Of a stretch of DNA of 64,000 bases, positions 5,468 through 59,934 are shown one piece after another (within the stretch, counting starts at the first letter, position 1; each line of letters opens with the position of its first letter). The stretch is from a virus. Below the pieces are notes generated by a model. That model saw only the letters and a program-made list of their open reading frames with translations. It was not told the DNA's origin and searched no databases. Position numbers and translations under genes: made by a program. The stretch is taken from positions 38,378 through 102,377 of IMG/VR virus record IMGVR_UViG_3300027708_001885, one strand, 5' to 3'.

Positions 5468-5468
5468 A

Positions 5469-7249: not shown

Positions 7250-7271
7250 ATTATTAATTATCGCTAATCAA

Positions 7272-7346
7272 TGGCCGGCCCTGCAGGAATTGAACCCACA
7301 TCGCATGGTTCGAAGCCACGTATTCTATCCATTGAACTAAGGGCCG
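7272..7346 (-). tRNA. tRNA-Arg(UCG)
   Basis: Cloverleaf; anticodon arm CGTGG-CTTCGAA-CCATG; encoded CCA. Confidence 0.9.
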
Positions 7347-7350
7347 CAAA

Positions 7351-7830
7351 TTAAGTAGCAAACCAAACTTCATCAAACCCTTCTTCCAAAGAAGGTGGGT
7401 CTGCTGTTAGATCAAAAGCCATTTGTTCTACTACACTTATTGGAATCTCTTTACCAGGTCGACTTGCTAAACGCTTGGCTAATTCTTCTTTTTCAGGAGT
7501 CTTAAACACTACTGCAATCTTGTAGTAGTCTGGCAACATGTTGAACTTACGAGCACGACTTGCAATAGTTGTACTGGTCTGATCCCAAATGATATCACGC
7601 TTCATTTCACGGGCCGCAATTACTTCCTTGGCCATGAGATCAACAGCAGTGGGCATGAAATCTGTAAACACTTCGGAATAGGTACGACCCACTTCCTTGG
7701 CATAGATTTCAACCCACTTGTCTGTACTGATGCGAGCACAGGTTATTGCCCATTCCTGATCATCTACCCATGTAGACTTACCTGAACCAGGCACTCCGAC
7801 TAGTACATATAATTTACATCGTTGGTCCAT
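7351..7830 (-). CDS. P-loop kinase, polynucleotide-kinase-like (AAA_33)
   Basis: GVPGSGKST, ISTD and IIWDQTS; start moved to MDQRCK. Confidence 0.8.
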   Translation of the reverse strand: MDQRCKLYVLVGVPGSGKSTWVDDQEWAITCARISTDKWVEIYAKEVGRTYSEVFTDFMPTAVDLMAKEVIAAREMKRDIIWDQTSTTIASRARKFNMLPDYYKIAVVFKTPEKEELAKRLASRPGKEIPISVVEQMAFDLTADPPSLEEGFDEVWFAT

Positions 7831-8419
7831 TGCCGTTCCTAAATGTAATTGATCCACCTTCTTCAACAATGCGCTTTTTTACATCCTCGAACAAGATGGG
7901 CGCAAAGTCCGGAGTCTGCTCAACGCAAACACAATGATAACGAACATCGTTCTCGTCGCTGTACAAGACTTCTCCTGTACGGGCATCGACACCCCTGGCC
8001 TTCTTGACACGATTTGCATGTAAATGACCGTGAACGTTAACACCGAATCGACCTAAGCTGTCACTATGTAAAGGAATATGACTAAAGATCATACCCTCTA
8101 CAACGTGATAGGCTCGCAATTCACGGAAGTAAGCTCTGTATTCGTCATCTCGGAAGATGTCGTGGTTACCGCGGATTAAGACCTTGTCGCCGTTCAAGCG
8201 AGCTAATGTCTTTAATGCCTTACGGTTAATAACCACATCGCCCAAATGATATATTTTATCTGTGGGCTTAACACGTTCGTTCCAAGCCTTGACCATGGCT
8301 TCGTCCATTTCTTCAGGACTGTCCCAAGGACGTAACTTTGTGACACCGTCGTTACGAGTGAACTTACAGACACCCATGTGTCCGAAGTGCGTATCACTCA
8401 CTAAAAATGTCGCTGTCAT
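7814..8419 (-). CDS. calcineurin-like metallophosphoesterase
   Basis: SDTHFGH, HLGD, GNHD and HGHLH motifs. Confidence 0.9.
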   Translation of the reverse strand: MTATFLVSDTHFGHMGVCKFTRNDGVTKLRPWDSPEEMDEAMVKAWNERVKPTDKIYHLGDVVINRKALKTLARLNGDKVLIRGNHDIFRDDEYRAYFRELRAYHVVEGMIFSHIPLHSDSLGRFGVNVHGHLHANRVKKARGVDARTGEVLYSDENDVRYHCVCVEQTPDFAPILFEDVKKRIVEEGGSITFRNGNGPTM

Positions 8420-8657
8420 ATTCTATCCTTTCTTTCTTTACTCGCCCTATTCGGCTAGCCTTGTTCCAATCATAGTCGACTCCATCAGGACACTTTCCGT
8501 CCTTAACAGCGTCAACGCCAAATATGCCACACACTTCAAAGTCCGGACCTTTGATAGTCACAAACATTCCAACGGTCTTGGCAAATGCCATGGCACCATC
8601 TAGTGTGTCGCTTCCGAATAGTGGCAAGCCACTTTTGCTTATTATATTATATATCAT
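8394..8657 (-). CDS. hypothetical protein
   Basis: Likely start at MIYNII, overlapping the upstream stop. Confidence 0.55.
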   Translation of the reverse strand: MIYNIISKSGLPLFGSDTLDGAMAFAKTVGMFVTIKGPDFEVCGIFGVDAVKDGKCPDGVDYDWNKASRIGRVKKERIEYDSDIFSE

Positions 8658-9114
8658 TTTTAAAAGTTCGCCAATCATCAATGTTTGGCTTTTCGTTTTC
8701 ATCATATGTCCAACCTAAAGCCTTCATCATGCGATGCTTGACTAGTAGGTTAGGGCTGCGGAATCTGCCAGTATCTTCAAAACCCATCATGACTCCGACT
8801 TCGCACACTGCACCACTACGGCAGATACCCATTGTACAATGCACGACTACATTCATTCTGTTAGATAATGCATGTTGCAGTAATCGAACAAGCTCGTCGG
8901 CTTGTTCTTGACTACATCTCATTGCTTCGTCTAAAGCAAAATCATTCTTTTCGATATCAAGGAACTCAAAATTATGACGCTCTTTGAATACGTGTTTTGC
9001 TTCTGGCTTCCAACCTGCAGGATCAGTAATGCTGATCAGCATACTATTCTCTCCGGCTTCATGATGAAACCTAGTAGGTATATCATCAGCAGCTACGTTT
9101 TCAATCCAGGGCAT
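8647..9114 (-). CDS. CX5R (protein tyrosine/dual-specificity) phosphatase-like protein
   Basis: VVVHCTMGICRSGAV; SD AAGGAG. Confidence 0.8.
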   Translation of the reverse strand: MPWIENVAADDIPTRFHHEAGENSMLISITDPAGWKPEAKHVFKERHNFEFLDIEKNDFALDEAMRCSQEQADELVRLLQHALSNRMNVVVHCTMGICRSGAVCEVGVMMGFEDTGRFRSPNLLVKHRMMKALGWTYDENEKPNIDDWRTFKNDI

Positions 9115-9137: not shown

Positions 9138-9166
9138 ATTATAGCAGTATTTTACCAATCTGTCAA
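9138..9166 (-). promoter_or_regulatory. sigma70 consensus promoter
   Basis: TTGACA-17 nt-TATAAT with extended -10 TG. Confidence 0.85.
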
Positions 9167-9748: not shown

Positions 9749-9869
9749 AACAGGTTCTCATTTTTGTGCTACCAATACACCAACACAGTTGACCAAACTG
9801 TGTCCAGGATTCGAACCTGGTCCGTCTTTTTTGCAGAAAGTTTAATAAGATTGCTGAAAAGAACCTAAA
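9749..9869 (-). ncRNA. Y-RNA-like element 1 with circularly permuted tRNA (GCA anticodon)
   Basis: Terminal stem AGGTTC/GAACCT, then TTCAGCAA, anticodon arm, T arm, loop-closed acceptor stem and D arm. Confidence 0.7.
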
Positions 9870-9880
9870 TGGTCAAATAA

Positions 9881-10001
9881 AACAGGCTACTTTTTTTGAT
9901 GGCGATGAAGCCATTGCTCTACCATTGAGCGAATTTGGGAAACCCCAAATGTTGGAATCGAACCAACGTGTCATAAATGACTTTGCTGAACGTAGCCTAA
10001 A
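9881..10001 (-). ncRNA. Y-RNA-like element 2 with circularly permuted tRNA
   Basis: Terminal stem AGGCTAC/GTAGCCT, then TTCAGCAA, T arm, loop-closed acceptor stem, D arm and anticodon-like arm. Confidence 0.7.
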
Positions 10002-10003
10002 AC

Positions 10004-10079
10004 TGGTTGCAGAGCTTGGATTCGAACCAAGGATGGCAAAGGCTTATGAGACCTCGCTGGTGACCAGACCCTCTCTGCG
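10004..10079 (-). tRNA. tRNA-Met(CAU), initiator-like, reduced D arm
   Basis: CTCATAA loop, C1:A72 mismatch, TTCGAAT T loop, ACCA end. Confidence 0.8.
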
Positions 10080-10228
10080 ATAATTGGTGGAGAACATTTT
10101 TGAGGTATCCCCTATGAAGCAGATCACTGCTAACCTGTTACATCGCATTTTAGTACTATTACTTGCCCCAAAGATTAGGTACCTACCTTGGCCGCTCATA
10201 CTGGATAATGTAACTTATCCGCTGTTCT

Positions 10229-10304
10229 TGGTGGAGGATATCAGGATCGAACTGATCACCTACTGCTTGCAAAGCAGCCGCTCTCCCAAATGAGCTAATC
10301 CCCC
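10229..10304 (-). tRNA. tRNA-Ala(UGC)
   Basis: Cloverleaf, G3:U70, TTTGCAA loop. Confidence 0.93.
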
Positions 10305-10309
10305 TAATA

Positions 10310-10387
10310 TGGTCGGACATGTAGGATTCAAACCTACGACCCTCGCGTCCCAAACGCGATGCGCTAATCAGGCTGCGCTAATGTCCG
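10310..10387 (-). tRNA. tRNA-Pro(UGG)
   Basis: Cloverleaf; TCGCG-TTTGGGA-CGCGA. Confidence 0.9.
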
Positions 10388-10517
10388 AAAATAAATTAGG
10401 GCACAACTATCTATCCTTACAGGACCAATAACACTTATTACCGTATTACTGACGACCATTGTTATTTAAAATTAGCACAGCGTCGACTAAGGACTAGAAG
10501 TGCTGATCCCCTAAAAC

Positions 10518-10593
10518 TGGTACCTGGTGACAGACTCGAACTGTCATCGCTCTCCGTGTAAAGGAGACGTATAACCTCTCTACGCAACCAGGC
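10518..10593 (-). tRNA. tRNA-Val(UAC)
   Basis: TCTCC-TTTACAC-GGAGA; TTCGAGT T loop; ACCA end. Confidence 0.88.
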
Positions 10594-10600
10594 AAAAATA

Positions 10601-10674
10601 TGGAGCGAGGTAGGAGAATCGAACTCCTCGCTTTAGATTGGAAATCTAAGGTATTGCCACTATACGAACCCCGC
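10601..10674 (-). tRNA. tRNA-Gly(UCC)
   Basis: TTAGA-TTTCCAA-TCTAA; TCCA end. Confidence 0.92.
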
Positions 10675-10676
10675 AT

Positions 10677-10759
10677 ACTTTATTGAAACACACTAACCGC
10701 TCTGTTCCTACTGTATGCCTACAGTTTGTATCCATTCGTTTAATACGTTTCAATAAAGT
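10677..10759 (-). repeat. hairpin cassette A (AAACACAYU/AGUGUGUUU family)
   Basis: About 19-bp stem whose G-U pairs form only on the minus strand; 45-nt insert. Confidence 0.7.
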
Positions 10760-10965
10760 GTCTAGCTACCTACACCACATAGGCCCTAGACTGAGCGGTC
10801 TACTCTGTCTACGTATTTCTTCTTTTGGAAAAGGTTAGCGTTCCCCACCCAATGCGTTTCCAGTATCCCCCAACAGGGACTGATAGTCAATGCACTGCAC
10901 ACTTAGCACTCTCTATGGTGACTGCCCCACCCACTTTCATAACGTCAAAGTGTAACCCGGGTTTC

Positions 10966-11040
10966 TGGTGCCGAATGTCTGGTTCGAACAGACGACCTAT
11001 CGCTTACAAGGCGATTGCACTACCGCTGTGCTAATTCGGC
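10966..11040 (-). tRNA. tRNA-Thr(UGU)
   Basis: ATCGC-CTTGTAA-GCGAT. Confidence 0.93.
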
Positions 11041-11050
11041 TTAAATCTAT

Positions 11051-11323
11051 TTAACCACCTTGTGTGGTATCTCGTACTTCGCTATCTTTGCGAAGTTCTT
11101 CTTCCAACCATAACATCTTTTGATGCCGATACATGTCTTCGCTCAATCCATGCCAACCAATACATTTGCCAGTTGGACTACGACCACAACCGCATGAACC
11201 AAATTCTTTTGGATTTTCTTTAACTCTTACTTGCATATCTTTCTTTCCAAAAATTACATCATAGTTATTGCCAAACTCTTTTTGGCTAACACTATACGGA
11301 CGAGGTCTACTGCCTTTGCTCAT
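11051..11323 (-). CDS. small protein with CDGSH-like Fe-S/Zn motif
   Basis: CGCGRSPTGKCIGWH resembles the CxCxxSxxxPxCDGSH motif. Confidence 0.6.
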   Translation of the reverse strand: MSKGSRPRPYSVSQKEFGNNYDVIFGKKDMQVRVKENPKEFGSCGCGRSPTGKCIGWHGLSEDMYRHQKMLWLEEELRKDSEVRDTTQGG

Positions 11324-11553
11324 CAGCGGACTCTCTTTAAATACTCACGTCCTACAAGTCCTGCTTCAATTTCTTGAAGTGCAGTAATAGTTGGACTGTT
11401 GAGTCCCATGACCTGTTTAGCATGACCACGGCGTAATTCTCGAACTCGAGCAGCCGCGATCAATACTAGATCAAATCTATTGCCTACCGCTTCGACACAT
11501 TTATCCGTGTCAATGTTTTGCGGCGAAAACTTTGTCTTAATTATTTGTACCAT
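11323..11553 (-). CDS. rpoZ: RNA polymerase omega subunit homolog
   Basis: CVEAVGNRFDLVLIAAARVREL...TITALQEIEAG. Confidence 0.88.
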   Translation of the reverse strand: MVQIIKTKFSPQNIDTDKCVEAVGNRFDLVLIAAARVRELRRGHAKQVMGLNSPTITALQEIEAGLVGREYLKRVR

Positions 11554-11579
11554 TTGCTACCTTTTGTTGAAAAAACTTT

Positions 11580-11654
11580 TGGCTCCTCAGACTGGGATCG
11601 AACCAATGACCGATCGGTTAACAGCCGATTGCTCTACCGCTGAGCTACTGAGGA
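11580..11654 (-). tRNA. tRNA-Asn(GUU)
   Basis: ATCGG-CTGTTAA-CCGAT. Confidence 0.95.
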
Positions 11655-11664
11655 ATATATTGTT

Positions 11665-11952
11665 TGGTGCTCCGAGCCGGACTCGAACCGGCACACCTTG
11701 CGGCGAGAGATTTTCTTACCACTATAGTTTTCACTACCCTTGCGGTTTGATGGTCTGGACTATACCTTCATCATAGTATTACTACTTTAGATGCCCGCCG
11801 TCTAGTCTCTACACGTTCCCTTTCGGGCTTCGCTCGGTATTAGCATTTTACAGCCTTCACCGAATTTGACGGGTTCTACTCCTAGCATTTCCACTAGGGC
11901 ACTCAAATTTTACTCTCAAGTCTCTTGTGTCTACCTATTTCACCATCGGAGC
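11665..11952 (-). tRNA. tRNA-Leu(UAA) split by a group I intron (exons 11918-11952 and 11665-11714)
   Basis: Splicing gives AGAGA-CTTAAAA-TCTCT with a long variable arm and ACCA end. Confidence 0.92.
11715..11917 (-). mobile_element. group I intron (IC3-like, ORF-less, 203 nt)
   Basis: Inserted after U34 and ends in G; core motifs AATTCGGTGAA, AATACCGAGC, TGTAGAGACTAGACGG and AAGGTATAGTCC. Confidence 0.92.
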
Positions 11953-11960
11953 ATTACCAA

Positions 11961-12035
11961 ATTAAAACATACTACTAACAGGCGGTCGATATCAGCGTTA
12001 GCCAAGTCACTTACCCGTATGCAGTATGTTTTAAT
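11961..12035 (-). repeat. hairpin cassette B
   Basis: ATTAAAACATACTGC/GTAGTATGTTTTAAT stem; 45-nt insert. Confidence 0.7.
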
Positions 12036-12036
12036 A

Positions 12037-12112
12037 TGGTGCCCTAGGAGAGACTCGAACTCTCAGAACCTGGTTTCTAAGACCAGTACGTATACCATTC
12101 CGTCACCAGGGC
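12037..12112 (-). tRNA. tRNA-Leu(UAG) lacking a long variable arm
   Basis: CTGGT-CTTAGAA-ACCAG; 76 nt total. Confidence 0.88.
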
Positions 12113-12158
12113 ATATATTTTTTAACGAACGTTGCTAAACTTGTTAGCCTATGTGTTT

Positions 12159-12187
12159 ATTATACAGGGTATTTAACAACCTGTCAA
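12159..12187 (-). promoter_or_regulatory. sigma70 consensus promoter internal to the tRNA array
   Basis: TTGACA-17 nt-TATAAT, followed by boxA-like GTTCGTTAAAAA at about 12119-12130. Confidence 0.85.
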
Positions 12188-12203
12188 CCCCTATCTAAAT
12201 TAA

Positions 12204-12423
12204 TTTGTTAAAGTAGTGTCACCATCGTTATAGACACCATTCACCCGTGTAATTAAGCCGGCCGGGACTCGGTACGTCACTTGGGATACTAGTCCAGATG
12301 ATACCCATTGTATGCCGATGCAATCAAGCGATCAGCCGGGTAACGACCCCGCATCCTTCTACTGTTTTGGTCCTTCGAAGAAACCTAGACAGCGTGACAT
12401 TCTCTTGCTAACACTCTAACAAA
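12204..12423 (-). ncRNA. candidate structured ncRNA (~220 nt)
   Basis: GC-rich non-coding segment closed by TTTGTTAGAGT/ACTTTAACAAA, with internal GTCAC/GTGAC and GTGTC/GACAC pairings. Confidence 0.5.
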
Positions 12424-12427
12424 ACTT

Positions 12428-12497
12428 GGTGCACCTAACAGGAATCAAACCTATCTACGTTTGGCTTCAAATCCAACTCGCAATGTCAATCCAGCGC
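12428..12497 (-). pseudogene. degenerate tRNA-like sequence
   Basis: T arm ATAGG-TTTGATT-CCTGT and ACCA end; D arm and acceptor pairing poor. Confidence 0.45.
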
Positions 12498-12578
12498 ATA
12501 AAAATAATCAAGAGCTTGTAGACCAAACTACAATTTACCGGTTTCTAGACGAATTCTCAAACTTGGTGTGTGATCAAA

Positions 12579-13301
12579 TTACCTGGCCCGAACCCACGAA
12601 TAATACCCTCCGTGACTTCCATTGATCAGGCTAAAATGATTTAGATACGGGTGATCTGCAGGGGGATACTTCAAATCAAATTTTGGTTTTGCCCCCAACT
12701 CACTGCTGATTTCTTCTATGACATCTCGGTCCTTGACATTCAACACATCCAGTACTAGTGTGCCGCCTACTTTGAGGCTTTTGAGTGCCTTGTCCCAGTA
12801 GTACTCCTTGGGATAATGCCAGCACCAAGAAAACATAGAAATTATAAGATCTACGTCAGCCGGCCAATCATCGTCGGGTGACAAGATGTTGAATTTATTT
12901 TTGTCCACTTCGGGACTAGTCAACGATTCGTTAAAAACTTCCCACAGATTGTACGAATAGTATTCTTTAGAATAATATGTTGGCTGACTAGGGAATTCAA
13001 CTGTTGTTTTGTCAACTAGAAAAAATTCAATATTTTTGTTTAGATGATGCAAAGTTAAATCAAATGTAGCTATTCCGCTACCAACATCAATTACTTTTTT
13101 TAAATTGGGTACATCAATGTGATTTGATGTTCTATTCCAATTCCCCAATGCAGTATCTTCCAATCTTTTGAAGAATAACTCTCGAGTATTGAATTCTTTC
13201 CAATGTTGCGGGCCTGTTTGCAATTTTGCCACCAGGGATAGTTTGTTGTAATTTTGCCAATAAATTCGTTTGTTGCTGATGGGTAATGATATGCTGTTCA
13301 T
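12579..13301 (-). CDS. class I SAM-dependent methyltransferase
   Basis: VIDVGSG, DLIISMFSWCWHYP, LKVGG. Confidence 0.75.
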   Translation of the reverse strand: MNSISLPISNKRIYWQNYNKLSLVAKLQTGPQHWKEFNTRELFFKRLEDTALGNWNRTSNHIDVPNLKKVIDVGSGIATFDLTLHHLNKNIEFFLVDKTTVEFPSQPTYYSKEYYSYNLWEVFNESLTSPEVDKNKFNILSPDDDWPADVDLIISMFSWCWHYPKEYYWDKALKSLKVGGTLVLDVLNVKDRDVIEEISSELGAKPKFDLKYPPADHPYLNHFSLINGSHGGYYSWVRAR

Positions 13302-13325
13302 ATCAATATTTAGTTTTATCAGATT

Positions 13326-13871
13326 TTAGAATTTGTTTTTGTACACTGCAAAACTTTTGTACTTTCTGATACTACGTTCTATCAGCAACTTGTGCTTTTC
13401 TCTATCAAGAGAACCTTCAATATACAATGTAGTACGGTCTGGATCTTCTCGAACACGATGTACACACGATGTTAGATCTAATGCATAGGCAAATGGAGCA
13501 TTTGGTAAAATTGGAGTAATCCAATCAGTACCGTTATATACTTCAAGTGAATTATTTTTTCCCTGTAATAAAATATGATACCCTGCCGGCTCTGTAGATT
13601 TAATTAAATCTAATTTTTCTGGGGTAGAGTTTTTTATATCGTGATCTATATGTGGACCGACTGCTTTTAATTGCACCTTATATGTAAATATTTCTACTTT
13701 GGAAAATGGTAATTGATCAAACAACCAGTTATATTCAACATAGTTATTTTCTTTACCTAAAATAGTTCGTGTTCTCCAAAATTTCTGTCGAGCACTAACA
13801 TGGTAATCACCCAATTTAAACGTTGGGTTATTTGGTATTGTTATGTCTAGTGGAACAAATAATAATGTCAT
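13326..13871 (-). CDS. hypothetical protein, cupin/2OG-oxygenase-like
   Basis: PHID...H...R pattern; start moved to MTLLF because the annotated extension overlaps tRNA-Tyr. Confidence 0.6.
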   Translation of the reverse strand: MTLLFVPLDITIPNNPTFKLGDYHVSARQKFWRTRTILGKENNYVEYNWLFDQLPFSKVEIFTYKVQLKAVGPHIDHDIKNSTPEKLDLIKSTEPAGYHILLQGKNNSLEVYNGTDWITPILPNAPFAYALDLTSCVHRVREDPDRTTLYIEGSLDREKHKLLIERSIRKYKSFAVYKNKF

Positions 13872-13882
13872 ATTTTTATTTA

Positions 13883-13967
13883 TGGTGGAGTGTACTGGGA
13901 TCGAACCAGTCATGCCCGAAGACGGCGGAGTTACAGTCCGCTGCACCACCATTGGTGCGTCCACTCC
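13883..13967 (-). tRNA. tRNA-Tyr(GUA)
   Basis: GCGGA-CTGTAAC-TCCGC with long variable arm. Confidence 0.88.
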
Positions 13968-13972
13968 ATATA

Positions 13973-14065
13973 TGGTACCAGCGGAGAGGATCGAACTCTC
14001 TCAAGAACGCTAATCTGGCGCTGAAAAGATTTATAAAATCTCTCTGACTTCCAAGTCTCGCTGGC
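13973..14065 (-). tRNA. atypical tRNA with UAU (Ile) anticodon, mini D arm and long variable arm
   Basis: GCCAGCG-A-GACT-TGGA-AGTC-A-GAGAGAT-TTTATAA-ATCTTTT...TTCGATC...ACCA. Confidence 0.75.
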
Positions 14066-14144
14066 ATATATAAACACACTTTATGCTTTGGGAATAACAT
14101 TTCTGTTAAGCAACCATCAACGGTTACGAAGTGTGTTTATATAT
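14066..14144 (-). repeat. hairpin cassette C
   Basis: Perfect 16-bp ATATATAAACACACTT/AAGTGTGTTTATATAT stem; 47-nt insert. Confidence 0.75.
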
Positions 14145-14219
14145 GGCGTCCCTAACGAGATTCGAACTCGTGTACCCGACGTGAAAGGCCGGTGTCCTAG
14201 GCCTCTAGACGATAGGGAC
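14144..14219 (-). tRNA. tRNA-Glu(UUC)
   Basis: CCGGC-CTTTCAC-GTCGG; GCCA end. Confidence 0.95.
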
Positions 14220-14234
14220 AAATTTTACTGTTAA

Positions 14235-14246
14235 TTGTTAAAGAGC
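14235..14246 (-). promoter_or_regulatory. boxA antitermination element
   Basis: GCTCTTTAACAA matches the rrn boxA consensus and lies between promoter and tRNA. Confidence 0.75.
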
Positions 14247-14272
14247 GTATGTTAATTTCTTAACATGTGTTT

Positions 14273-14301
14273 ATTATAGCATAGTTTTCTAACGGTGTCA
14301 A
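14273..14301 (-). promoter_or_regulatory. sigma70 consensus promoter
   Basis: TTGACA-17 nt-TATAAT with extended -10 TG. Confidence 0.88.
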
Positions 14302-14302
14302 G

Positions 14303-14376
14303 TGGTGCTCAAGTAAAGAATCGAACTTTAATTTCCAACGTACCAAGTTGGTGTACTACCATTGTACTACAAGAGC
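14303..14376 (-). tRNA. tRNA-Thr(GGU)
   Basis: CCAAC-TTGGTAC-GTTGG; two U-U mismatches in the acceptor stem. Confidence 0.85.
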
Positions 14377-14391
14377 ATTATAAATAAAATT

Positions 14392-14877
14392 ATGCAAGAA
14401 AATTATAAACCTGTTGATATCAAATATGATAGAAATACTATAATGAATATTTTACAATCAGATAATAAAAATATTGTTAGACCGTGCTCTGTAGTAGAAA
14501 GATTTAGAATATCTAAAATATTGAATTTAAAAGACCCTATAACAAATATATTATACTTTCAAATGAATAAAGAATTTATAGGTGATATCCATAAAGATTA
14601 TACAGGAGAATATTATATAACTCATGCACTGATTTTACCGTTAATGGGTTGTAAAGCCACACATATGAAATGGTTTTTCCAAAACAATAATGTTACCAAC
14701 AATTCATTGTTAGGACCGACTGGGAAACCAATTCCTTTGTTATTGCATAGTAATGCGACCTGTATAGATACTGTCAATTGCAATACTCCCATTATAGTTA
14801 AGATAGATGATTGGCATTCAATTGAAAATAATTCAATTGAAGAGGTTAGTCATCTTATAAGTATAAGATTTGAGTAA
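14392..14877 (+). CDS. hypothetical protein, cupin/2OG-oxygenase-like
   Basis: IHKD...WHSIEN pattern; start at MQENY after TATAAATA. Confidence 0.6.
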   Translation: MQENYKPVDIKYDRNTIMNILQSDNKNIVRPCSVVERFRISKILNLKDPITNILYFQMNKEFIGDIHKDYTGEYYITHALILPLMGCKATHMKWFFQNNNVTNNSLLGPTGKPIPLLLHSNATCIDTVNCNTPIIVKIDDWHSIENNSIEEVSHLISIRFE

Positions 14878-15773
14878 TGGAGCATATTATAAATATCTAT
14901 ATGAAAATAACACCTATAAAAGATTCTTGGGGCTGCACTATTGAATTTGATAATCCTATGGATTTTTTTCAATATGACAATAACTACTGGCGTGATATGT
15001 TATATAGGAAAAAAATAATAATTTTTAAACGTATGAATTTTGAATTATTAGATTTTGCAAAATTTGGAACATACTTTGGGTCACCTTGGGACAAATGCGA
15101 TTACACATACAGCCGTGAAATAGGATTAACATGTGAAGATGTTGATAAAAATTATAGTGTATCTCATTTCAGTAATAAAATTCTCGGAATAGCAGATAGT
15201 GAAATGCCATGGCACGCTGATATTCCAAACCGAAGTTATAATCCTTATCCCCATAGAGCTTTATGGATTGTTAAGAATCCCAATCCTGATATATCGGGAA
15301 AAACAAAATGGCTCAATATTGAGGATTGTTTTAAACACTTAACTCCTAAGATGAAAGAATTATTGCCTAGAGTTAAGATAGAACAACAAAGTTGGTATGC
15401 ACCCGGCACCGATTTAGGAATTTATGATTTTATTAAAATACACCCTATTACAAAAAAACCAAGTTTGCGATTAAACTTTTATAATACAGATAAAATGAAA
15501 GGTGCTTGGATTAAAAGTGTCTATATTGATAATGAATTGCAATCTGATTGCAGTGTGATAAAAATGTTTATTGAACATTTAGAAAAAATTCCCGAGCTAG
15601 TACATTATCACCAATGGGACAACCAGGATATAGTTATATATGATAATTGGTCTTTTTTACACGGACGTACAGCATTACAGTTAGGCAACACTCCCGATAC
15701 TCAAGAACGTGCATTTTATAGGATGAATATTGATCATGTTGCTAATGATGTTTGGAACAATCAAAATATCTGA
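14877..15773 (+). CDS. TauD/TfdA family dioxygenase
   Basis: WHAD, HPIT and W...DIVIYDNW..LHGR motifs; true start may be 14901. Confidence 0.85.
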   Translation: MEHIINIYMKITPIKDSWGCTIEFDNPMDFFQYDNNYWRDMLYRKKIIIFKRMNFELLDFAKFGTYFGSPWDKCDYTYSREIGLTCEDVDKNYSVSHFSNKILGIADSEMPWHADIPNRSYNPYPHRALWIVKNPNPDISGKTKWLNIEDCFKHLTPKMKELLPRVKIEQQSWYAPGTDLGIYDFIKIHPITKKPSLRLNFYNTDKMKGAWIKSVYIDNELQSDCSVIKMFIEHLEKIPELVHYHQWDNQDIVIYDNWSFLHGRTALQLGNTPDTQERAFYRMNIDHVANDVWNNQNI

Positions 15774-16342
15774 TTTCCACCTTCGACTGCAATATCGACA
15801 ATAAGATGTATTCTAAAATCATCACCGTTGTTTATTAATTGATGAGGCAATCTATTATTAAGCTGACTTAACATTTTAAAAGGCATATGCTCAGTAATAG
15901 AAGAATCTTCTCCACTGAATAATACCATATTGTTTGTTTTAAACGGTATATGAAATCTTGAATACATTTCAAAATAATCACAAGGATCAGTATGCAGACC
16001 AACCTGACTTTTTGATTCTAATCGTACAATCATTATTCTTCCTAATGCAATACCATCAACTTGTTTATAAATCCATTCAGATGCTAAACATGCATTTTTG
16101 TATATATCGGTAGCAGGAAAATTATTTTCGCATTCTGTAATCATGCACCATTCTTCAAGTGATGTTGGCAATTTGCCTTTTGGTATTTTATTTCCTCGAA
16201 TATGAATGGCTTTGCTGGTATTGAACACGGAATTCCGTCTACTAGGATCTAAAATAGTTTCCCATTGAATAGTGTTTATTTCCTCTAACGCAGAAAAAAA
16301 TATACAATCAGGCACTTCGGTAATTGTTTTAACTAACGGCAT
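15761..16342 (-). CDS. aspartyl/asparaginyl beta-hydroxylase-domain oxygenase
   Basis: GRIMIVRL, HTD, RFHIP, H...N...RIHLIVD. Confidence 0.75.
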   Translation of the reverse strand: MPLVKTITEVPDCIFFSALEEINTIQWETILDPSRRNSVFNTSKAIHIRGNKIPKGKLPTSLEEWCMITECENNFPATDIYKNACLASEWIYKQVDGIALGRIMIVRLESKSQVGLHTDPCDYFEMYSRFHIPFKTNNMVLFSGEDSSITEHMPFKMLSQLNNRLPHQLINNGDDFRIHLIVDIAVEGGNQIF

Positions 16343-16358
16343 ATATTAATTTATGCAT

Positions 16359-16433
16359 TGGTCTCGCCACCAAGGATCGAACTTGGATCAAAAGTTTAGG
16401 AAACTTCTATTCTATCCATTGAACTACAGCGAG
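16359..16433 (-). tRNA. tRNA-Arg(CCU)
   Basis: GAAGT-TTCCTAA-ACTTT. Confidence 0.9.
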
Positions 16434-16435
16434 AA

Positions 16436-16510
16436 TGGTCCGGCGTAACAGAATCGAACTGCTGTTTAGGAGGTAGAAGCTCCCTGTATTTTCCACTATA
16501 CGAACGCCAG
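16436..16510 (-). tRNA. tRNA-Arg(UCU)
   Basis: GGGAG-CTTCTAC-CTCCT. Confidence 0.9.
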
Positions 16511-16513
16511 ATG

Positions 16514-16587
16514 TGGTAGGTCATGACGGTATTGAACCGCCGTATCTTGGATGTCGACCAAGCACTCTACCTTTGAGTTAATGACCT
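16514..16587 (-). tRNA. tRNA-Val(GAC), C at position 33
   Basis: CTTGG-TCGACAT-CCAAG. Confidence 0.85.
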
Positions 16588-17253
16588 ATGTTTATTGTTG
16601 CTTCTTCCAAAATTCCAACCATGTGGTAACGGATCTGTTTCTAAATGAAGTTTGTCATCCACTCCGTCTGTTATAAACTTTCTATTTTTATATGATGCCG
16701 AACCTGCATTCAAAAAATGTTTGCTATTTTTTCTTCCATTTATTGATTTTATTTCAGCACTATGAACTTCGCAATAACTAGCAAATCTTGTCTTTACTGG
16801 CAACTCACAGCAGATACATTTTTTGATTTCAAAATTTATTTTTCTTCCCAAAATCCAACCATCTGGCAATTCTTTGCTAATTGATATTTTTTTAGATACT
16901 TTTAATTCCGAGTTATAAATCCATTTTGTTCCAAACTGAGTATTTCCCGACCCTGTTTGTTTTTTGCTCTGAGCTTTAGAAAGTTTTCTTCTAAGCCATC
17001 CGTATAATTTATTTGATGGGCGATTAGCAACCATCATTACAGCGGCATGTAATAACGCAGAATTGTCTGGATTTATTTTCACTAGTAACTGATGTGCCAG
17101 ATAATGTTCTTCTGGTGTAAGATATACTAAGTTAATTTTATCATCCTTTCCACCTAGACATCGTGGTACAATGTGATGCCACTCACCGTATTCATTTAAC
17201 GTTCTTACTGATGCTCGAATAACAAGGTTATCGTATATTTTTTGATAGTTCAT
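16567..17253 (-). CDS. HNH homing endonuclease
   Basis: MNYQKIY..., EWHHIVPRCLGG.D...NLVYLTPEEHYLAH; stop codon lies inside tRNA-Val. Confidence 0.88.
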   Translation of the reverse strand: MNYQKIYDNLVIRASVRTLNEYGEWHHIVPRCLGGKDDKINLVYLTPEEHYLAHQLLVKINPDNSALLHAAVMMVANRPSNKLYGWLRRKLSKAQSKKQTGSGNTQFGTKWIYNSELKVSKKISISKELPDGWILGRKINFEIKKCICCELPVKTRFASYCEVHSAEIKSINGRKNSKHFLNAGSASYKNRKFITDGVDDKLHLETDPLPHGWNFGRSNNKHRSLTQR

Positions 17254-17275
17254 ATTGTATTTACCATCAAGTTTC

Positions 17276-17315
17276 ACCGTGTCGAGGTAGTGTTCTACCA
17301 TTAAACTAAGGACCT
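17276..17315 (-). pseudogene. 5' half of a tRNA-Val(GAC), truncated by the HNH insertion
   Basis: AGGTCCT-TA-GTTT-AATGGTA-GAAC-A-CTACC-TCGACAC-GGT, then unrelated sequence. Confidence 0.75.
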
Positions 17316-17323
17316 GAATAGGT

Positions 17324-17473
17324 TTTCGAGAGACCAGCTATCTTTCTGAAGGACTCACTGGCTTGTCTCGTATGAGCGAGTTTAAACTACCCTGTATAAT
17401 TCTACTGGTGTGTCATGCATCAGCCTAATGCACTAGAATACAAGGGACTCGAATCTCTACGTCTATCTCGAAA
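17324..17473 (-). ncRNA. candidate structured ncRNA (~150 nt)
   Basis: Terminal TTTCGAGA/TCTCGAAA stem with nested helices and a possible pseudoknot. Confidence 0.5.
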
Positions 17474-17474
17474 C

Positions 17475-17595
17475 TGGTGCCGCTGCTGGGATTCGAACCC
17501 AGATAACCCCCTTGACATGGATTAAGAAAATTGCTGAACGTACTCTATACAGAGTCACCCTTTTATAAGGTGTCCTACCATTAGGCGACAGCGGC
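17475..17595 (-). ncRNA. CCA-ended tRNA with the UUCAGCAA module inserted in its anticodon arm
   Basis: Acceptor GCCGCTG/CAGCGGC, TTCGAAT T loop and ACCA end; about 45-nt insert containing ACTCT-GTAT-AGAGT-AC-GTTCAGCAA. Confidence 0.75.
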
Positions 17596-17602
17596 AATAA
17601 CT

Positions 17603-17677
17603 TGGTGGTAATGACTGGATTTGAACCAGTAACACTCTCCGTATGAAGGAGGAAGACTACCATTGTCCTACATTACC
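17603..17677 (-). tRNA. tRNA with CAU anticodon (Met or Ile2)
   Basis: CTCC-TTCATAC-GGAG; ACCA end. Confidence 0.85.
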
Positions 17678-17759
17678 ATATAGAAACACACTGGCTTGCA
17701 AGACTCCTACTAACCTTTCGATAGATGTCGCAGTTAGTATTCAATGTGTTTTTATATGG
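17676..17759 (-). repeat. hairpin cassette D
   Basis: CCATATAAAAACACATTG/CAGTGTGTTTCTATATGG stem; 48-nt insert. Confidence 0.7.
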
Positions 17760-17793
17760 TAGGGGTTTTATGAGTTGATGCATAAATAAGTGT

Positions 17794-18702
17794 ATGCCTA
17801 ATTATACAACATTTACATGTTCTTGCATAGTCTGCAAACAACCAAAAACCTCAAAAGGTATTCATTCTCATTATCTCATTTCTCATACAGAAGAAGGACG
17901 AGCAAGAAATCGTAAAAATCGTCTTGCTGGTGGATTATTAGGTTCTGAAATTGCTAAACAAAATGCACAGCAAATTCAAAATCAATATTTAGAAAATCCT
18001 AACAAATGCAAACAGTGCGATGTCTCTCTTACATACGAGCAGCGTCATAATAAATTCTGTTCAACATCCTGTTCGGCAAGTTTTTACAACAAGGATCGAA
18101 AAGGTGTTGCTCTAGATACTGCTGTGAAACAAAAGATTTCAGATAGTGTTAAAAAGTTTAATCTAGAAAATCCTTACACCAAATCAAAACAGATGTTTAG
18201 CAGACTATCGTATTGTTGTATATGCAACTCTGTCATACAAAACAAAATTGTTAAAACTTGTTCTTCTAAATGCAAGTCAGTGCTGTTATCAAACAACATG
18301 TCCGATAGAATCAAACAAAACAGAAGAAGTAATTATCGCAGAGATAAAAGATCTTATCTCGAAGAATCATTTGAAACTTGGTTGTTGGATAACAACATTT
18401 CTCTAAAATATGAAACTGAATACACTATTAAAAATCATATTACACAGAAATGGTATTTCGTGGATTTCTACTTTCCCGAAATAAATCTTATAGTTGAACT
18501 TGACGGGAAACAGCACGAAAAACCTAAACACAAAGAAGCAGACAAACTTCGTGATGAATACATCACTACTAATCTAAACTTAAATGTTTTTAGAATTTCT
18601 TATGATGAATATCAAGCTGGTTCTAAAATAAACGAATTACTAAAATTATTGGTGAGGCAGGTGGGGTTCGAACCCACAAGGAGATTTCTCTCGCCAGATT
18701 AA
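17794..18702 (+). CDS. Zn-finger + DUF559/Vsr-like PD-(D/E)xK endonuclease (homing-type)
   Basis: Repeated CxxC and FCSxxC motifs; YFVDFY...IVELDGKQH...D..RD; ends antisense within tRNA-Lys. Confidence 0.82.
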   Translation: MPNYTTFTCSCIVCKQPKTSKGIHSHYLISHTEEGRARNRKNRLAGGLLGSEIAKQNAQQIQNQYLENPNKCKQCDVSLTYEQRHNKFCSTSCSASFYNKDRKGVALDTAVKQKISDSVKKFNLENPYTKSKQMFSRLSYCCICNSVIQNKIVKTCSSKCKSVLLSNNMSDRIKQNRRSNYRRDKRSYLEESFETWLLDNNISLKYETEYTIKNHITQKWYFVDFYFPEINLIVELDGKQHEKPKHKEADKLRDEYITTNLNLNVFRISYDEYQAGSKINELLKLLVRQVGFEPTRRFLSPD

Positions 18703-18737
18703 AAGTCTGGTACCGCAGCCACTTCGGTGTCTGCCCC
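18650..18737 (-). tRNA. tRNA-Lys(UUU) with long variable arm
   Basis: CCAGA-CTTTTAA-TCTGG; variable arm CGAGAGAAATCTCCTT. Confidence 0.82.
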
Positions 18738-18741
18738 ATAT

Positions 18742-18815
18742 TGGTCCCACACCACGGTAATGATCCGTGTTTTACCGGTTAAGAGCCGGTTACATCACCT
18801 TAATGTTTGTGAGGG
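18742..18815 (-). tRNA. tRNA-Lys(CUU), atypical T loop
   Basis: ACCGG-CTCTTAA-CCGGT; T loop ATCATTA. Confidence 0.78.
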
Positions 18816-18876
18816 TTAGTTGTATTAAATTGATTTAATGTGCCAACCCTAGACCAATACGGGATCTAGAGCGACA

Positions 18877-18897
18877 CTAACGTTTAGCACGTTTCAT
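18877..18897 (-). CDS. minigene MKRAKR* with strong SD and a hairpin at the stop
   Basis: AAAGGAGA-5 nt-ATG AAA CGT GCT AAA CGT TAG. Confidence 0.5.
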   Translation of the reverse strand: MKRAKR

Positions 18898-18925
18898 ATC
18901 GTTCTCCTTTGAACATAATTAAAAT

Positions 18926-19001
18926 TGGTACCAAGAGTCGGGATCGAACCGACCACACCCGATTCTTCAGACCGGTGCTCTACCAACTGAGCTATCTTGG
19001 C
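18926..19001 (-). tRNA. tRNA-Phe(GAA)
   Basis: CCGGT-CTGAAGA-ATCGG. Confidence 0.93.
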
Positions 19002-19012
19002 ATTGATGAATA

Positions 19013-19105
19013 TGATAATAGGGGTGACCACTGAGAAGTCTCACTCAGACTACAACTTTCACAGAGTTGGGTGCCAATTTTACACTATGGTCACCCCTAT
19101 TATCA
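19013..19105 (-). tRNA. tRNA-His(GUG)-like, atypical T loop, acceptor extended to an 18-bp stem, no encoded CCA
   Basis: CAACT-CTGTGAA-AGTTG; G-1:C73; T loop TGAGACTT. Confidence 0.7.
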
Positions 19106-19112
19106 CATAAAC

Positions 19113-19187
19113 TGGCAGGGGCTGAAGGTAACGCTCCTTCTCACCTAGTTTCAAAGACTAGTATCTGCTCTTATCGATTTAACCCCT
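19113..19187 (-). tRNA. tRNA-Gln(UUG), atypical
   Basis: CTAGT-CTTTGAA-ACTAG; T loop AGCGTTA; AGGGG/CCCCT-G acceptor. Confidence 0.72.
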
Positions 19188-19193
19188 AAATAT

Positions 19194-19255
19194 AACAGGA
19201 TGCTTATTTTTCAATTAACAGTTGAATTGGATAAGTTTGCTGAACGCATCCTAAA
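19194..19255 (-). ncRNA. Y-RNA-like element 3 carrying an isolated GUU anticodon hairpin
   Basis: AGGATGC/GCATCCT stem, TTCAGCAA, TTCAA-CTGTTAA-TTGAA. Confidence 0.7.
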
Positions 19256-19257
19256 AC

Positions 19258-19333
19258 TGGTACCCTACCCTGGTTTCGATCCAGGTACCCCCGCCTTATC
19301 AAGACGGTGCTCTCCCAATTGAGCTAGTAGGGC
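19258..19333 (-). tRNA. tRNA-Ile(GAU)
   Basis: CCGTC-TTGATAA-GGCGG. Confidence 0.9.
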
Positions 19334-19338
19334 ATATT

Positions 19339-19416
19339 TGGTGCGTCCCGAGAGGTTCGAACTCCCGACCCCCGGCTTCGTAAACCAGTGCTCTAATCCA
19401 GCTGAGCTAGGGACGC
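19339..19416 (-). tRNA. tRNA-Arg(ACG)
   Basis: CTGGT-TTACGAA-GCCGG. Confidence 0.93.
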
Positions 19417-19424
19417 ATTAAATT

Positions 19425-19500
19425 TGGAGTAGGTAACAGGAGTCGAACCTGCATAAAACAGATTTGCAATCTGCCCCCTAGCCTTTCGGGTCATACCTAC
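19425..19500 (-). tRNA. tRNA-Cys(GCA)
   Basis: GCAGA-TTGCAAA-TCTGT; U73. Confidence 0.9.
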
Positions 19501-19507
19501 ATAATAA

Positions 19508-19573
19508 AACAGGATCAACTTTTTAGTTTCTGGATAAAAGAAAGTTTGTTAGTTTTGCTGAACTGATCCTAAA
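19508..19573 (-). ncRNA. Y-RNA-like element 4 carrying a 5-bp/7-nt hairpin
   Basis: AGGATCA/TGATCCT stem, TTCAGCAA, TTTCT-TTTATCC-AGAAA. Confidence 0.65.
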
Positions 19574-20642: not shown

Positions 20643-20670
20643 ATTATACACGAGTTAAGTAGAATGTCAA
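20643..20670 (-). promoter_or_regulatory. sigma70 promoter
   Basis: TTGACA-16 nt-TATAAT. Confidence 0.75.
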
Positions 20671-21101: not shown

Positions 21102-21176
21102 TGGTGGAGGCCGAGGGAATCGAACCCTTCTAGTCACGATCCTTGCAAGGGAACGCCGCAGCCCACTGCTGCCCCC
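21102..21176 (-). tRNA. atypical tRNA-Ala(UGC) with mini D arm
   Basis: GGGGGC-A-GCAG-TGGG-CTGC; CTTGCAA loop; G3:U70; ACCA end. Confidence 0.75.
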
Positions 21177-22607: not shown

Positions 22608-22636
22608 ATTATACATTTATTTAGTCTCGTTGTCAA
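22608..22636 (-). promoter_or_regulatory. sigma70 promoter P2 of the tRNA array
   Basis: TTGACA-17 nt-TATAAT. Confidence 0.88.
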
Positions 22637-58918: not shown

Positions 58919-59038
58919 TATGCCTCCACGATTCTATACTGTGAGTTGGGATAGCGTTCTCGCAACCATTCCAACATACCTTCCTCGCAGGGAAGTCGAA
59001 TAGAATCAAACTTGTTAGTAATATATCTCATTTTATCC

Positions 59039-59933: not shown

Positions 59934-59934
59934 A

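What the first reader, a model, noticed from the sequence alone, without database searches (positions are those of the whole stretch)
9749..19573. Family of five Y-RNA-like modules (terminal stem + UUCAGCAA) carrying different tRNA-derived cargo
Seen: four elements (9749-9869, 9881-10001, 19194-19255, 19508-19573) share the frame UUU-AGGNNN(N)-N(1-2)-UUCAGCAA-[cargo]-(N)NNNCCU-GUU. The stem sequences differ but always pair (AGGUUC/GAACCU, AGGCUAC/GUAGCCU, AGGAUGC/GCAUCCU, AGGAUCA/UGAUCCU), which is within-genome covariation. The cargo is two permuted tRNAs and two single anticodon-sized hairpins. A fifth copy lies inside the tRNA at 17475-17595. Established: bacterial Y RNAs (YrlA type) combine a 5'/3' terminal stem bound by Ro60/Rsr (TROVE) with a tRNA-mimic domain, and often sit near RNA-repair genes. 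Inference: this is a modular handle-plus-tRNA-bait RNA family, possibly decoys or adaptors for anticodon nucleases or repair enzymes. No TROVE gene is present in this window.
Basis: partly seen in the sequence, partly recalled or inferred. Interest (0 to 1): 0.88.

Follow-up and report, generated by a model that had tools for sequence, protein, structure and literature searches.

The report
Phage handle RNAs carrying tRNA parts
A giant phage's tRNA gene cluster holds five small RNAs that share one conserved "handle" joined to different pieces of tRNA. In related phages this handle sits beside a gene for a Ro60-like ring protein, so they look like an undescribed cousin of the Ro60/Y-RNA particle, although this phage fragment lacks the protein gene.

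Summary
Four minus-strand elements share the frame UUUU-AGGNNNN-N-UUCAGCAA-cargo-A run-NNNNCCU-GUU (4 matches against 0.05 expected). A fifth copy inside a CCA-ended tRNA is a circularly permuted handle, supported by compensatory changes in a distant orthologue.

The family is widespread. I found 115 unique copies with 34 different stems in IMG/VR phage tRNA arrays, always on the tRNA strand. Cargo is a tRNA elbow (T arm, closed acceptor, D arm), an anticodon-like hairpin, or a tRNA body.

No Rfam family reaches its threshold (YrlA 26.5 bits against 69). The YrlA Rsr motif GNCGAA is absent. No TROVE or RtcB gene was found, here or in 35 relatives.

Instead, 27 of 35 element-bearing records, including 6 of 6 complete genomes, encode a DUF2828+DUF7788 protein; 0 of 20 controls do. 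Its predicted fold matches Ro60 first. The gene usually lies within 300 nt of a handle RNA.

This 102-kb fragment has no such gene. In its collinear relative the gene sits in a slot that here holds other genes.

The best reading is Y-RNA analogues for a Ro60-like protein. Binding and function are inferred, not shown. Earlier sessions of this scan reported the same system on other DNA. I found no paper describing it.

The parts
9884..9998 (-). Handle RNA A. Stem AGGCUAC/GUAGCCU, then G-UUCAGCAA. Cargo: hairpin, T arm, 7-bp acceptor closed by a tetraloop, D arm, 5-bp hairpin with a 6-nt loop (UUCAUC). An A7 run precedes the 3' strand.
   Evidence: MFE -38.3, z -6.0. Weak full-length YrlA match, 26.5 bits. 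Model R1, trained without it, scores it 34.3 bits.
9752..9866 (-). Handle RNA B. Stem AGGUUCU/AGAACCU, then U-UUCAGCAA. Cargo: weak hairpin with loop CUGCAAA, T arm, closed acceptor with loop UUGGUC, D arm.
   Evidence: Close orthologues in L015 (G006), L035, L040, L052 and L059.
19511..19570 (-). Handle RNA C. Stem AGGAUCA/UGAUCCU. Cargo: 5-bp/7-nt hairpin UUUCU-UUUAUCC-AGAAA.
   Evidence: Orthologues in L069, L056 and L035.
19197..19252 (-). Handle RNA D. Stem AGGAUGC/GCAUCCU. Cargo: UUCAA-CUGUUAA-UUGAA, an Asn-GUU-type anticodon loop.
   Evidence: Orthologues in L007, L069 and L105 carry CUUUUAA (Lys-UUU type), one base different.
17475..17595 (-). Element E. A CCA-ended tRNA body (acceptor, D arm, T arm) in which a circularly permuted handle (core 17531-17564) takes the place of a normal anticodon loop.
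   Evidence: Rfam tRNA 36.8 bits with a large insert. Folding. Orthologues in G006 and L095 with compensatory changes.
12159..12187 (-). Perfect-consensus sigma-70-type promoter upstream of the tRNA run that ends with A and B.
   Evidence: 12 of 12 matches; repeat family D10.
20643..20670 (-). Perfect-consensus sigma-70-type promoter upstream of the tRNA run that contains C and D.
4168..7813 (-). Syntenic slot. The collinear relative G006 has its Ro60-like gene and three handle RNAs between the same two flanking genes. Here the slot holds a P-loop kinase, tRNA-Arg(UCG), a glycosyltransferase and three other ORFs.
7351..9114 (-). Context genes: P-loop kinase (AAA_33 type), metallophosphoesterase and dual-specificity phosphatase. 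These are possible RNA end-healing enzymes that recur beside handle-bearing tRNA arrays.
   Evidence: ORF clusters present in 10, 22 and 11 of 64 loci. Pfam on window 8647-9114.

Best explanation
The five elements are small non-coding RNAs cut out of the phage's tRNA operons. They belong to a large family built from two parts.

1. A constant handle. The 5' and 3' ends form a 7-bp stem (AGGNNNN/NNNNCCU). A single-stranded N-UUCAGCAA sits on the 5' side, opposite an A-rich 3' strand.
2. An interchangeable tRNA-derived body: a tRNA elbow, an anticodon-like hairpin, or a whole tRNA.

By analogy with Y RNAs, the handle is most likely the docking site for a Ro60-like ring protein (DUF2828 helical repeats plus a vWA domain with a DxSGS MIDAS motif). 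Related phages encode this protein right next to handle RNAs. The body would then present a tRNA-shaped surface to tRNA-binding enzymes, either to recruit them or to soak them up. Candidates are repair or end-healing enzymes, modification enzymes and host anticodon nucleases.

Shown here: the family, its covariation, its placement in tRNA operons, the gene-RNA linkage in relatives, and the predicted Ro60 fold.

Inferred: binding of the handle to the protein, processing into discrete RNAs, and any role in tRNA repair or counter-defence.

In this phage the protein gene is missing from the 102 kb held, and its syntenic slot has been replaced. The partner may be encoded in the unsequenced part (CheckV puts the record at 22% complete), supplied by the host, or lost.
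For: - Motif frame: 4 observed against 0.05 expected.
- Family size: 115 unique copies with 34 distinct stem sequences; 93 are followed by GTT.
- Arm-swap control: 116 of 167 against a mean of 17.
- Orientation: all 95 scorable copies lie on the strand of the nearest tRNA, at a median gap of 10 nt.
- The permuted copy E keeps the handle even though no free ends exist there, with compensatory changes in L095. This argues for a binding module rather than a cutting signal.
- DUF7788 is found in 27 of 35 element-bearing records and 6 of 6 complete genomes, against 0 of 20 control viral records.
- 20 of 23 such genes have a handle RNA within 300 nt upstream on the same strand.
- Cases free of motif ascertainment: G006's gene is flanked by three handle RNAs. 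Mycobacteriophage AvadaKedavra and a Felixounavirus, both found by protein search, have CAGCAA handle RNAs just after the gene.
- AlphaFold model (pLDDT 78, pTM 0.71): the 13 best PDB matches are all Ro60/TROVE structures, aligned full length, E down to 9e-9 and TM up to 0.60.
- Ro60 proteins of bacteria and phages are known to bind adjacent Y RNAs (PMC4201824, PMC12135203).
Against: - No binding or expression data exist.
- This genome fragment has no DUF2828/DUF7788, TROVE, RtcB or RNA ligase gene, and the syntenic slot is occupied by other genes.
- Eight of 35 element-bearing records lack the gene, though all eight are incomplete.
- Most loci were collected through the motif, so the gene-RNA proximity counts are partly ascertainment-biased.
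- The Ro60 similarity is structural only. Sequence searches of the PDB find nothing, and TM 0.57-0.60 is moderate.
- Only about 27 of 66 short cargos have a canonical anticodon-type loop.
Confidence: 0.62

Rival explanations
1. The elements are processing punctuation. The stem plus UUCAGCAA would only guide endonucleolytic cutting or spacing of the polycistronic tRNA transcript, and the released pieces would be by-products with no partner protein.
For: The elements sit between tRNAs at a median gap of 10 nt. Their flanks (UUUU...GUU) resemble the CCA-GUUUU trailers of the neighbouring tRNAs.
Against: Most tRNA junctions in these arrays lack the element. The cargo is conserved as orthologous types across phages. 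Element E keeps the handle in closed, permuted form inside a tRNA, where no end has to be cut. The tight linkage to one protein gene would go unexplained.
Confidence: 0.1
2. The RNAs are protein-independent decoys or sponges. They would act alone as baits for host anticodon nucleases or tRNA-modifying enzymes, with the handle serving only for stability and excision. This would fit a phage that has lost the Ro60-like gene.
For: Among short cargos with canonical loops, the dominant types are Lys-UUU (8), Arg-UCU (4) and Thr-UGU (4). D copies the tRNA-Asn loop. From my own knowledge, not tested here, such tRNAs are typical targets of anticodon nucleases. G000 keeps five RNAs while the gene slot is replaced.
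Against: An invariant 8-nt single-stranded motif plus invariant AGG/CCU pairs is more than stability needs. The gene is present in 6 of 6 complete genomes. Many cargos are not anticodon-like. G000 is only 22% complete.
Confidence: 0.15
3. The elements are true YrlA-type Y RNAs that work with a canonical TROVE Ro60/Rsr of the phage or host.
For: The YrlA model aligns full length to A, with T arm, closed acceptor and D arm in register. Sub-threshold YrlA hits also appear in relatives.
Against: The score is 26.5 bits against a gathering score of 69. The GNCGAAN0-1G motif (PMC4201824) is absent. TROVE is absent from G000 and from 35 relatives, including 6 complete genomes. C and D have no tRNA-like domain at all.
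Confidence: 0.05
4. The elements act at the DNA level, as miniature inverted-repeat mobile elements or homing targets, with terminal inverted repeats AGGNNNN/NNNNCCU.
For: They have inverted termini and recurrent T-rich flanks, and HNH, GIY-YIG and DUF559 endonuclease genes lie in these arrays.
Against: The inverted termini differ between copies in one genome yet always stay complementary. That fits selection on RNA pairing, not a shared transposase site. Orientation is always that of the tRNAs (95 of 95). The cargos are tRNA-like folds.
Confidence: 0.03

Closest known systems
Ro60 (Rsr) with Y RNAs, in particular bacterial and phage YrlA (Rfam RF02553; Chen et al. 2014, PMC4201824) and Thermus phage phiLo Ro60 with Yrl1/Yrl2 (PMC12135203)
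   Same: Both are small RNAs whose 5' and 3' ends form a stem next to a conserved single-stranded or internal-loop motif. Both can carry a tRNA-like module with a T arm, closed acceptor and D arm (A and B). In relatives the RNAs are encoded beside a HEAT-ring plus vWA protein whose predicted fold matches Ro60 best.
   Different: The handle is AGGNNNN-N-UUCAGCAA, not GNCGAA/CGAA. The protein is DUF2828+DUF7788, not Pfam TROVE, with no sequence-level PDB hit. There is no rtcB link. The cargo is far more varied (anticodon-like hairpins, whole tRNA bodies, a permuted handle inside a tRNA), and there are several copies per genome inside tRNA arrays. YrlA scores stay below the gathering score.
Class I RNAs of dictyostelid social amoebae (Rfam RF01414; Kjellin et al. 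2021, PMC7919456)
   Same: Size is similar (42-65 nt against 48-67 nt for the short type). Both have a short covarying stem joining the ends. A conserved motif directly follows the 5' strand (Rfam consensus CCUUACAGCAA against N-UUCAGCAA). The termini match (AG... and ...CU-GU), and the interior is variable. Sub-threshold hits score 27 bits on D and up to 34.7 bits in relatives.
   Different: All scores are below the gathering score of 41.5. The organisms and transcription signals are unrelated. The known binder of Class I RNA is an RRM protein, Rnp1A. The resemblance could be convergence and was not tested further.
Phage T4 stable RNAs rnaC and rnaD (species 1 and 2) in the T4 tRNA cluster
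   Same: They are small stable RNAs of unknown function, co-transcribed with phage tRNAs and carrying tRNA-like features.
   Different: They have no UUCAGCAA motif and no AGG/CCU stem.
Circularly permuted tRNA genes (known from a red alga; from my own knowledge)
   Same: The order T arm, acceptor, D arm occurs within one transcript (A and B).
   Different: Here the acceptor is closed by a 4-5-nt loop with no CCA, and no normal anticodon arm is rebuilt. These are mimics, not precursors of decoding tRNAs.

Membership tests
Rfam YrlA (RF02553) | Score at or above the curated gathering score (69 bits) | tested here: not met
   The best hit is A at 26.5 bits. B, C and D score nothing useful.
Rfam YrlA (RF02553) | tRNA-like domain: T arm, closed acceptor-like hairpin, D arm | tested here: met
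   Met for A and B only. C and D lack it.
Rfam YrlA (RF02553) | GNCGAAN0-1G motif near the 5' end, the proposed Rsr contact (PMC4201824) | tested here: not met
   The 5' regions read AGGNNNN-N-UUCAGCAA.
Rfam YrlA (RF02553) | Encoded next to a TROVE-domain Ro60/Rsr gene | tested here: not met
   PF05731 is absent from G000 and from 35 of 35 element-bearing relatives.
Y RNA in the functional sense (Ro60-type RNP partner) | Gene linkage to a protein with the Ro60 fold | tested here: inconclusive
   Met in relatives: 27 of 35 records, 6 of 6 complete genomes, 20 of 23 genes within 300 nt, and the fold search. Not met in this 102-kb fragment.
Y RNA in the functional sense (Ro60-type RNP partner) | Physical binding of the stem or motif to the ring protein | not testable with these tools
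   Needs EMSA, RIP or a structure.
Dictyostelid Class I RNA (RF01414) | Score at or above the gathering score (41.5 bits) | tested here: not met
   D scores 27 bits and relatives up to 34.7.
Dictyostelid Class I RNA (RF01414) | Short covarying terminal stem, conserved motif after the 5' strand, about 42-65 nt | tested here: met
   C is 60 nt and D is 56 nt. Stem and motif are shown, and the features are as described in PMC7919456.
Phage handle-RNA family defined here (model R1) | 7-bp stem AGGNNNN/NNNNCCU, N-UUCAGCAA, 3' A run, GU(U) trailer, tRNA-operon context | tested here: met
   A to D meet all features. E meets them in permuted form.
Ro60/TROVE protein family (for the partner protein of relatives) | HEAT-repeat ring plus vWA domain with a MIDAS motif | tested here: met
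   The predicted structure matches Ro60 chains over about 500 columns. DxSGS is invariant in alignment A1. The Pfam TROVE model itself does not match.

The most novel reading that the evidence does not exclude
Phages of many lineages carry a programmable RNP. One Ro60-like ring would be loaded, through a universal UUCAGCAA handle, with a set of interchangeable tRNA-shaped baits (anticodon loops of Lys, Arg, Thr and Asn tRNAs, tRNA elbows, whole tRNAs). These baits would capture host anticodon nucleases or deliver broken tRNAs to repair enzymes. Under this reading the handle is evolutionarily related to the unexplained Class I RNAs of social amoebae. This window would add that the RNAs can persist, and perhaps work, after the phage's own ring-protein gene has been replaced.
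Probability: 0.15. Interest if true: 0.9.

Novelty: new variant of a known kind. Interest (0 to 1): 0.74.

Why it matters
Ro60/Y-RNA particles are a classic but poorly understood RNA-surveillance system.

The protein family involved here is common. tblastn finds it in 701 GenBank phage records, including Felix O1-like, T4-like Vibrio and Aeromonas phages, Listeria phages and mycobacteriophages. It is annotated at best as "Ro-like RNA binding protein" or DUF2828. I found no description of its partner RNAs in Rfam 15 or in the paper library.

A conserved handle attached to swappable tRNA parts offers an easy experimental entry into two questions: what Y-type RNAs do, and how phages protect or manipulate the tRNA pool during the fight with tRNA-cutting host defences. 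Several cultured phages carry the system, so it is directly testable.

Tried and rejected
- Rfam at gathering and at permissive thresholds, on the window and on six related loci. It found only tRNAs, one group I intron, and sub-threshold YrlA and Class I hits.
- TROVE, RtcB, Rnl1 and Rnl2 searches of the phage record were all negative. For Rnl1 the tool's control genomes also gave nothing, so that negative is uninformative.
- TROVE and RtcB in 35 relatives were negative. An Rnl2-type ligase is present in only 4 of 6 complete genomes, so there is no consistent ligase link.
- T4 rnaC and rnaD were fetched and read; they have no shared motif.
- Megablast of the array against GenBank phages found only tRNA-sized matches.
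- Sequence and profile searches of the PDB with the DUF2828 protein found nothing. Only the fold search was informative.
- A literature search for UUCAGCAA returned only unrelated siRNA and primer hits. DUF2828 returned only plant and tardigrade mentions. "Ro-like" returned only genome announcements and a cytotoxicity screen.
- Burroughs and Aravind 2016 and the supplement of Chen et al. 2014 are not held. I therefore could not check whether their phage YrlA list already includes handle-type RNAs.
- The MITE and terminator readings were rejected on covariation, orientation and the lack of a U tract.


Full report
WHAT THE WINDOW IS

The window is the last 64 kb of a 102-kb IMG/VR virus record that CheckV rates 22% complete. 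Tail-fibre, baseplate-type and other phage proteins, Hsp70, and many sugar and radical-SAM enzymes mark it as a very large tailed phage. Between 7.2 and 21.9 kb, the minus strand carries 34 tRNA genes with encoded CCA ends and one group I intron. Several perfect-consensus sigma-70-type promoters sit on the same strand.

CHECK OF THE OBSERVATION

- Read on the minus strand, the four elements are exactly as described.
- The composite pattern AGGN5TTCAGCAA occurs four times, against 0.05 expected.
- Each copy closes with a perfect 7-bp stem of different sequence, has an A run before the 3' strand, and is followed by GUU.
- A and B carry a T arm, a 7-bp acceptor helix closed by a short loop, and a D arm. 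Their T loops (UUCGAUU, UUCGAAU) and GG-containing D loops look canonical.
- C and D carry only a 5-bp/7-nt hairpin. D's loop is identical to the anticodon loop of the phage's two tRNA-Asn genes.

The fifth copy lies in a CCA-ended tRNA that Rfam scores at 36.8 bits with a long insert. There the string A-run, GUgACUCU, GUAU, AGAGUAC, G, UUCAGCAA is the same handle with its outer end closed by a tetraloop.
- An orthologue in the collinear relative is 96% identical.
- A distant orthologue (L095) reads GUgAACCU-GUCA-AGGUUAC-G-UUCAGCA. That changes two pairs on both sides and restores the family's AGG and CCU-GU termini.
- The thermodynamic fold allows another pairing, so I treat this copy as well supported rather than proven.

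THE FAMILY BEYOND THIS WINDOW

- The loci yield 115 unique elements with a closing stem ending in CCT. They use 34 different stem sequences, and 93 are followed by GTT.
- Because that set was chosen for pairing, I ran an arm-swap control. 116 of 167 motif hits pair with their own arm, against a mean of 17 with another hit's arm.
- Lengths are bimodal: 48-67 nt and about 89-117 nt.
- Every scorable copy lies on the strand of the nearest tRNA, at a median of 10 nt from it. The loci are large tRNA arrays.
- Cargo types recur as orthologous groups across phages.
- Three topologies exist. In A and B the handle takes the anticodon-arm position of a closed-acceptor tRNA mimic. In L080 and L115 the handle takes the acceptor position of a D-arm/anticodon-arm/T-arm body. 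In E the handle sits closed inside an open tRNA.
- Of 66 short elements, about 27 have a canonical Y32-U33-NNN-R37 loop, led by UUU, UCU and UGU.
- A covariance model built from short copies finds A, which was not in the training set, at 34 bits. It finds no further copy in the 102 kb.

THE PARTNER

Neither occurs in this record or in 35 element-bearing relatives, six of them complete.

Clustering the ORFs of the loci gave a different answer. The most frequent neighbour is a roughly 475-aa protein with Pfam DUF2828 plus DUF7788.
- DUF7788 is present in 27 of 35 element-bearing records and in all six complete genomes. It is absent from 20 viral records that matched the motif by chance.
- The gene has a handle RNA within 300 nt upstream on the same strand in 20 of 23 cases.
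- Those loci were collected through the motif, so I looked for independent cases. G006's gene lies 30 kb from the motif hit that brought that record in, yet it is flanked by three handle RNAs.
- Two GenBank phages found by protein search also have CAGCAA-type handle RNAs directly after the gene: mycobacteriophage AvadaKedavra and Salmonella phage BPS17W1. One of the mycobacteriophage RNAs is YrlA-like at 39.8 bits.
- The protein has an invariant DxSGS motif.
- Its AlphaFold model (pLDDT 78, pTM 0.71) has Ro60 structures as its 13 best PDB matches, over the whole length. These come from Thermus phage phiLo, Deinococcus, Xenopus and human.
- Sequence-level searches of the PDB find nothing.

THE SITUATION IN THIS GENOME

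No such gene exists in the 102 kb by Pfam search or tblastn. The record is collinear with G006. In G006 the Ro60-like gene and three handle RNAs lie between a metallophosphoesterase (93.5% identical to window 7814-8419) and a dCMP deaminase (window 3655-4167). In this phage the same interval holds a P-loop kinase, tRNA-Arg, a glycosyltransferase and three other ORFs. So the cassette has been replaced at its expected site while five handle RNAs remain in the tRNA array. With 78% of the genome unseen, I cannot say whether the gene sits elsewhere.

MECHANISM

The best-supported reading is that the handle is a protein-docking module analogous to the Ro60-binding stem of Y RNAs, and that the tRNA-shaped body is the effector part. 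Three things argue for sequence-specific recognition over mere processing:
- the invariant single-stranded octamer on the 5' strand;
- the three invariant closing pairs;
- the survival of the handle in closed, permuted form.

What the RNP does is not shown. Conserved neighbours (kinase, metallophosphoesterase, dual-specificity phosphatase) and an Rnl2-type ligase in four of six complete genomes fit a tRNA-repair setting. The anticodon-like cargos fit a bait for anticodon-directed enzymes. Both are inferences.

COMPARISON WITH WHAT IS KNOWN

The closest system is Ro60 with YrlA-type Y RNAs (PMC4201824), and phage Ro60 with Yrl RNAs that carry a CGAA motif (PMC12135203). The elements here fail YrlA membership on score, on motif and on the TROVE neighbour. 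They share only the tRNA-like module (A and B) and the general logic.

The short type resembles dictyostelid Class I RNAs in size, terminal stem, motif position and sequence, and termini (PMC7919456). It stays below that family's threshold. T4 rnaC and rnaD share no motif.

I found no paper on the handle or on DUF2828 in phages. Jumbo-phage comparative work mentions only ROT/TROVE proteins with a tRNA-like partner (PMC7824862). Two sources that might bear on priority are not held.

EARLIER NOTES OF THIS SCAN

After I had derived the DUF2828 link, a look-up showed that several earlier sessions reported the same protein-handle pairing on other DNA: Felix O1-type, crAss-like, giant-virus and other records. 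My results agree with them and were obtained independently here. This window adds three things: the permuted in-tRNA copy with comparative support, the three attachment topologies, and a genome in which the gene's syntenic slot has been replaced.

VERDICT

The feature is real and widespread. It is a new variant of the Ro60/Y-RNA kind. The function is untested.

Noticed in passing
window 9867-9883 and 9784-9792 (minus strand); L015, L035, L040, L052, L059, L029: B-type elements are preceded by UUUGACC(A/U)UU, and their closed acceptor hairpin has the loop UUGGUC(A), which is complementary to GACCA. Both strings are conserved in seven orthologues. They could pair with each other, or the loop could pair with NCCA ends of tRNAs. 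There is no covariation, because both strings are invariant.
   Followed up: partly
window 19113-19186 (minus strand): A 74-nt CCA-ended tRNA-like sequence with anticodon loop CUUUGAA (Gln-UUG type) and an odd T arm (GAAGG-AGCGUUA-CCUUC). Neither ARAGORN nor Rfam calls it.
   Followed up: no
window 11734-11921 (minus strand): Group I intron (Rfam 61.1 bits) inside the tRNA array, between tRNA-Leu and tRNA-Asn. Its host gene was not determined.
   Followed up: no
window 9138-9166, 12159-12187, 14273-14301, 20643-20670, 22608-22636 (minus strand): Five perfect TTGACA-N16/17-TATAAT promoters divide the tRNA array into operons. Three of them share about 45 nt of surrounding sequence (repeat family D10).
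   Followed up: partly
window 19197-19252 compared with L007, L069, L105: D differs from its orthologues by one base in the cargo loop (CUUUUAA to CUGUUAA). This turns a Lys-UUU-type loop into the Asn-GUU loop of the phage's own tRNA-Asn.
   Followed up: partly
window 4168-7813 compared with G006 58875-62378: Cassette replacement between conserved flanking genes. The Ro60-like gene plus three handle RNAs in the relative correspond here to a kinase, tRNA-Arg, a glycosyltransferase and three ORFs.
   Followed up: yes
window 16567-17301, 17794-18702, 21130-21711: Endonuclease genes are interspersed in the tRNA array. GIY-YIG and HNH genes recur in the related loci.
   Followed up: no
L137 3960-4200 (Mycobacterium phage AvadaKedavra): Three RNAs with NNCAGCAA handles directly follow the annotated 'Ro-like RNA binding protein' gene, and the middle one has a YrlA-like tRNA domain. 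So the handle consensus outside this clade is CAGCAA, with stems that need not start with AGG.
   Followed up: partly
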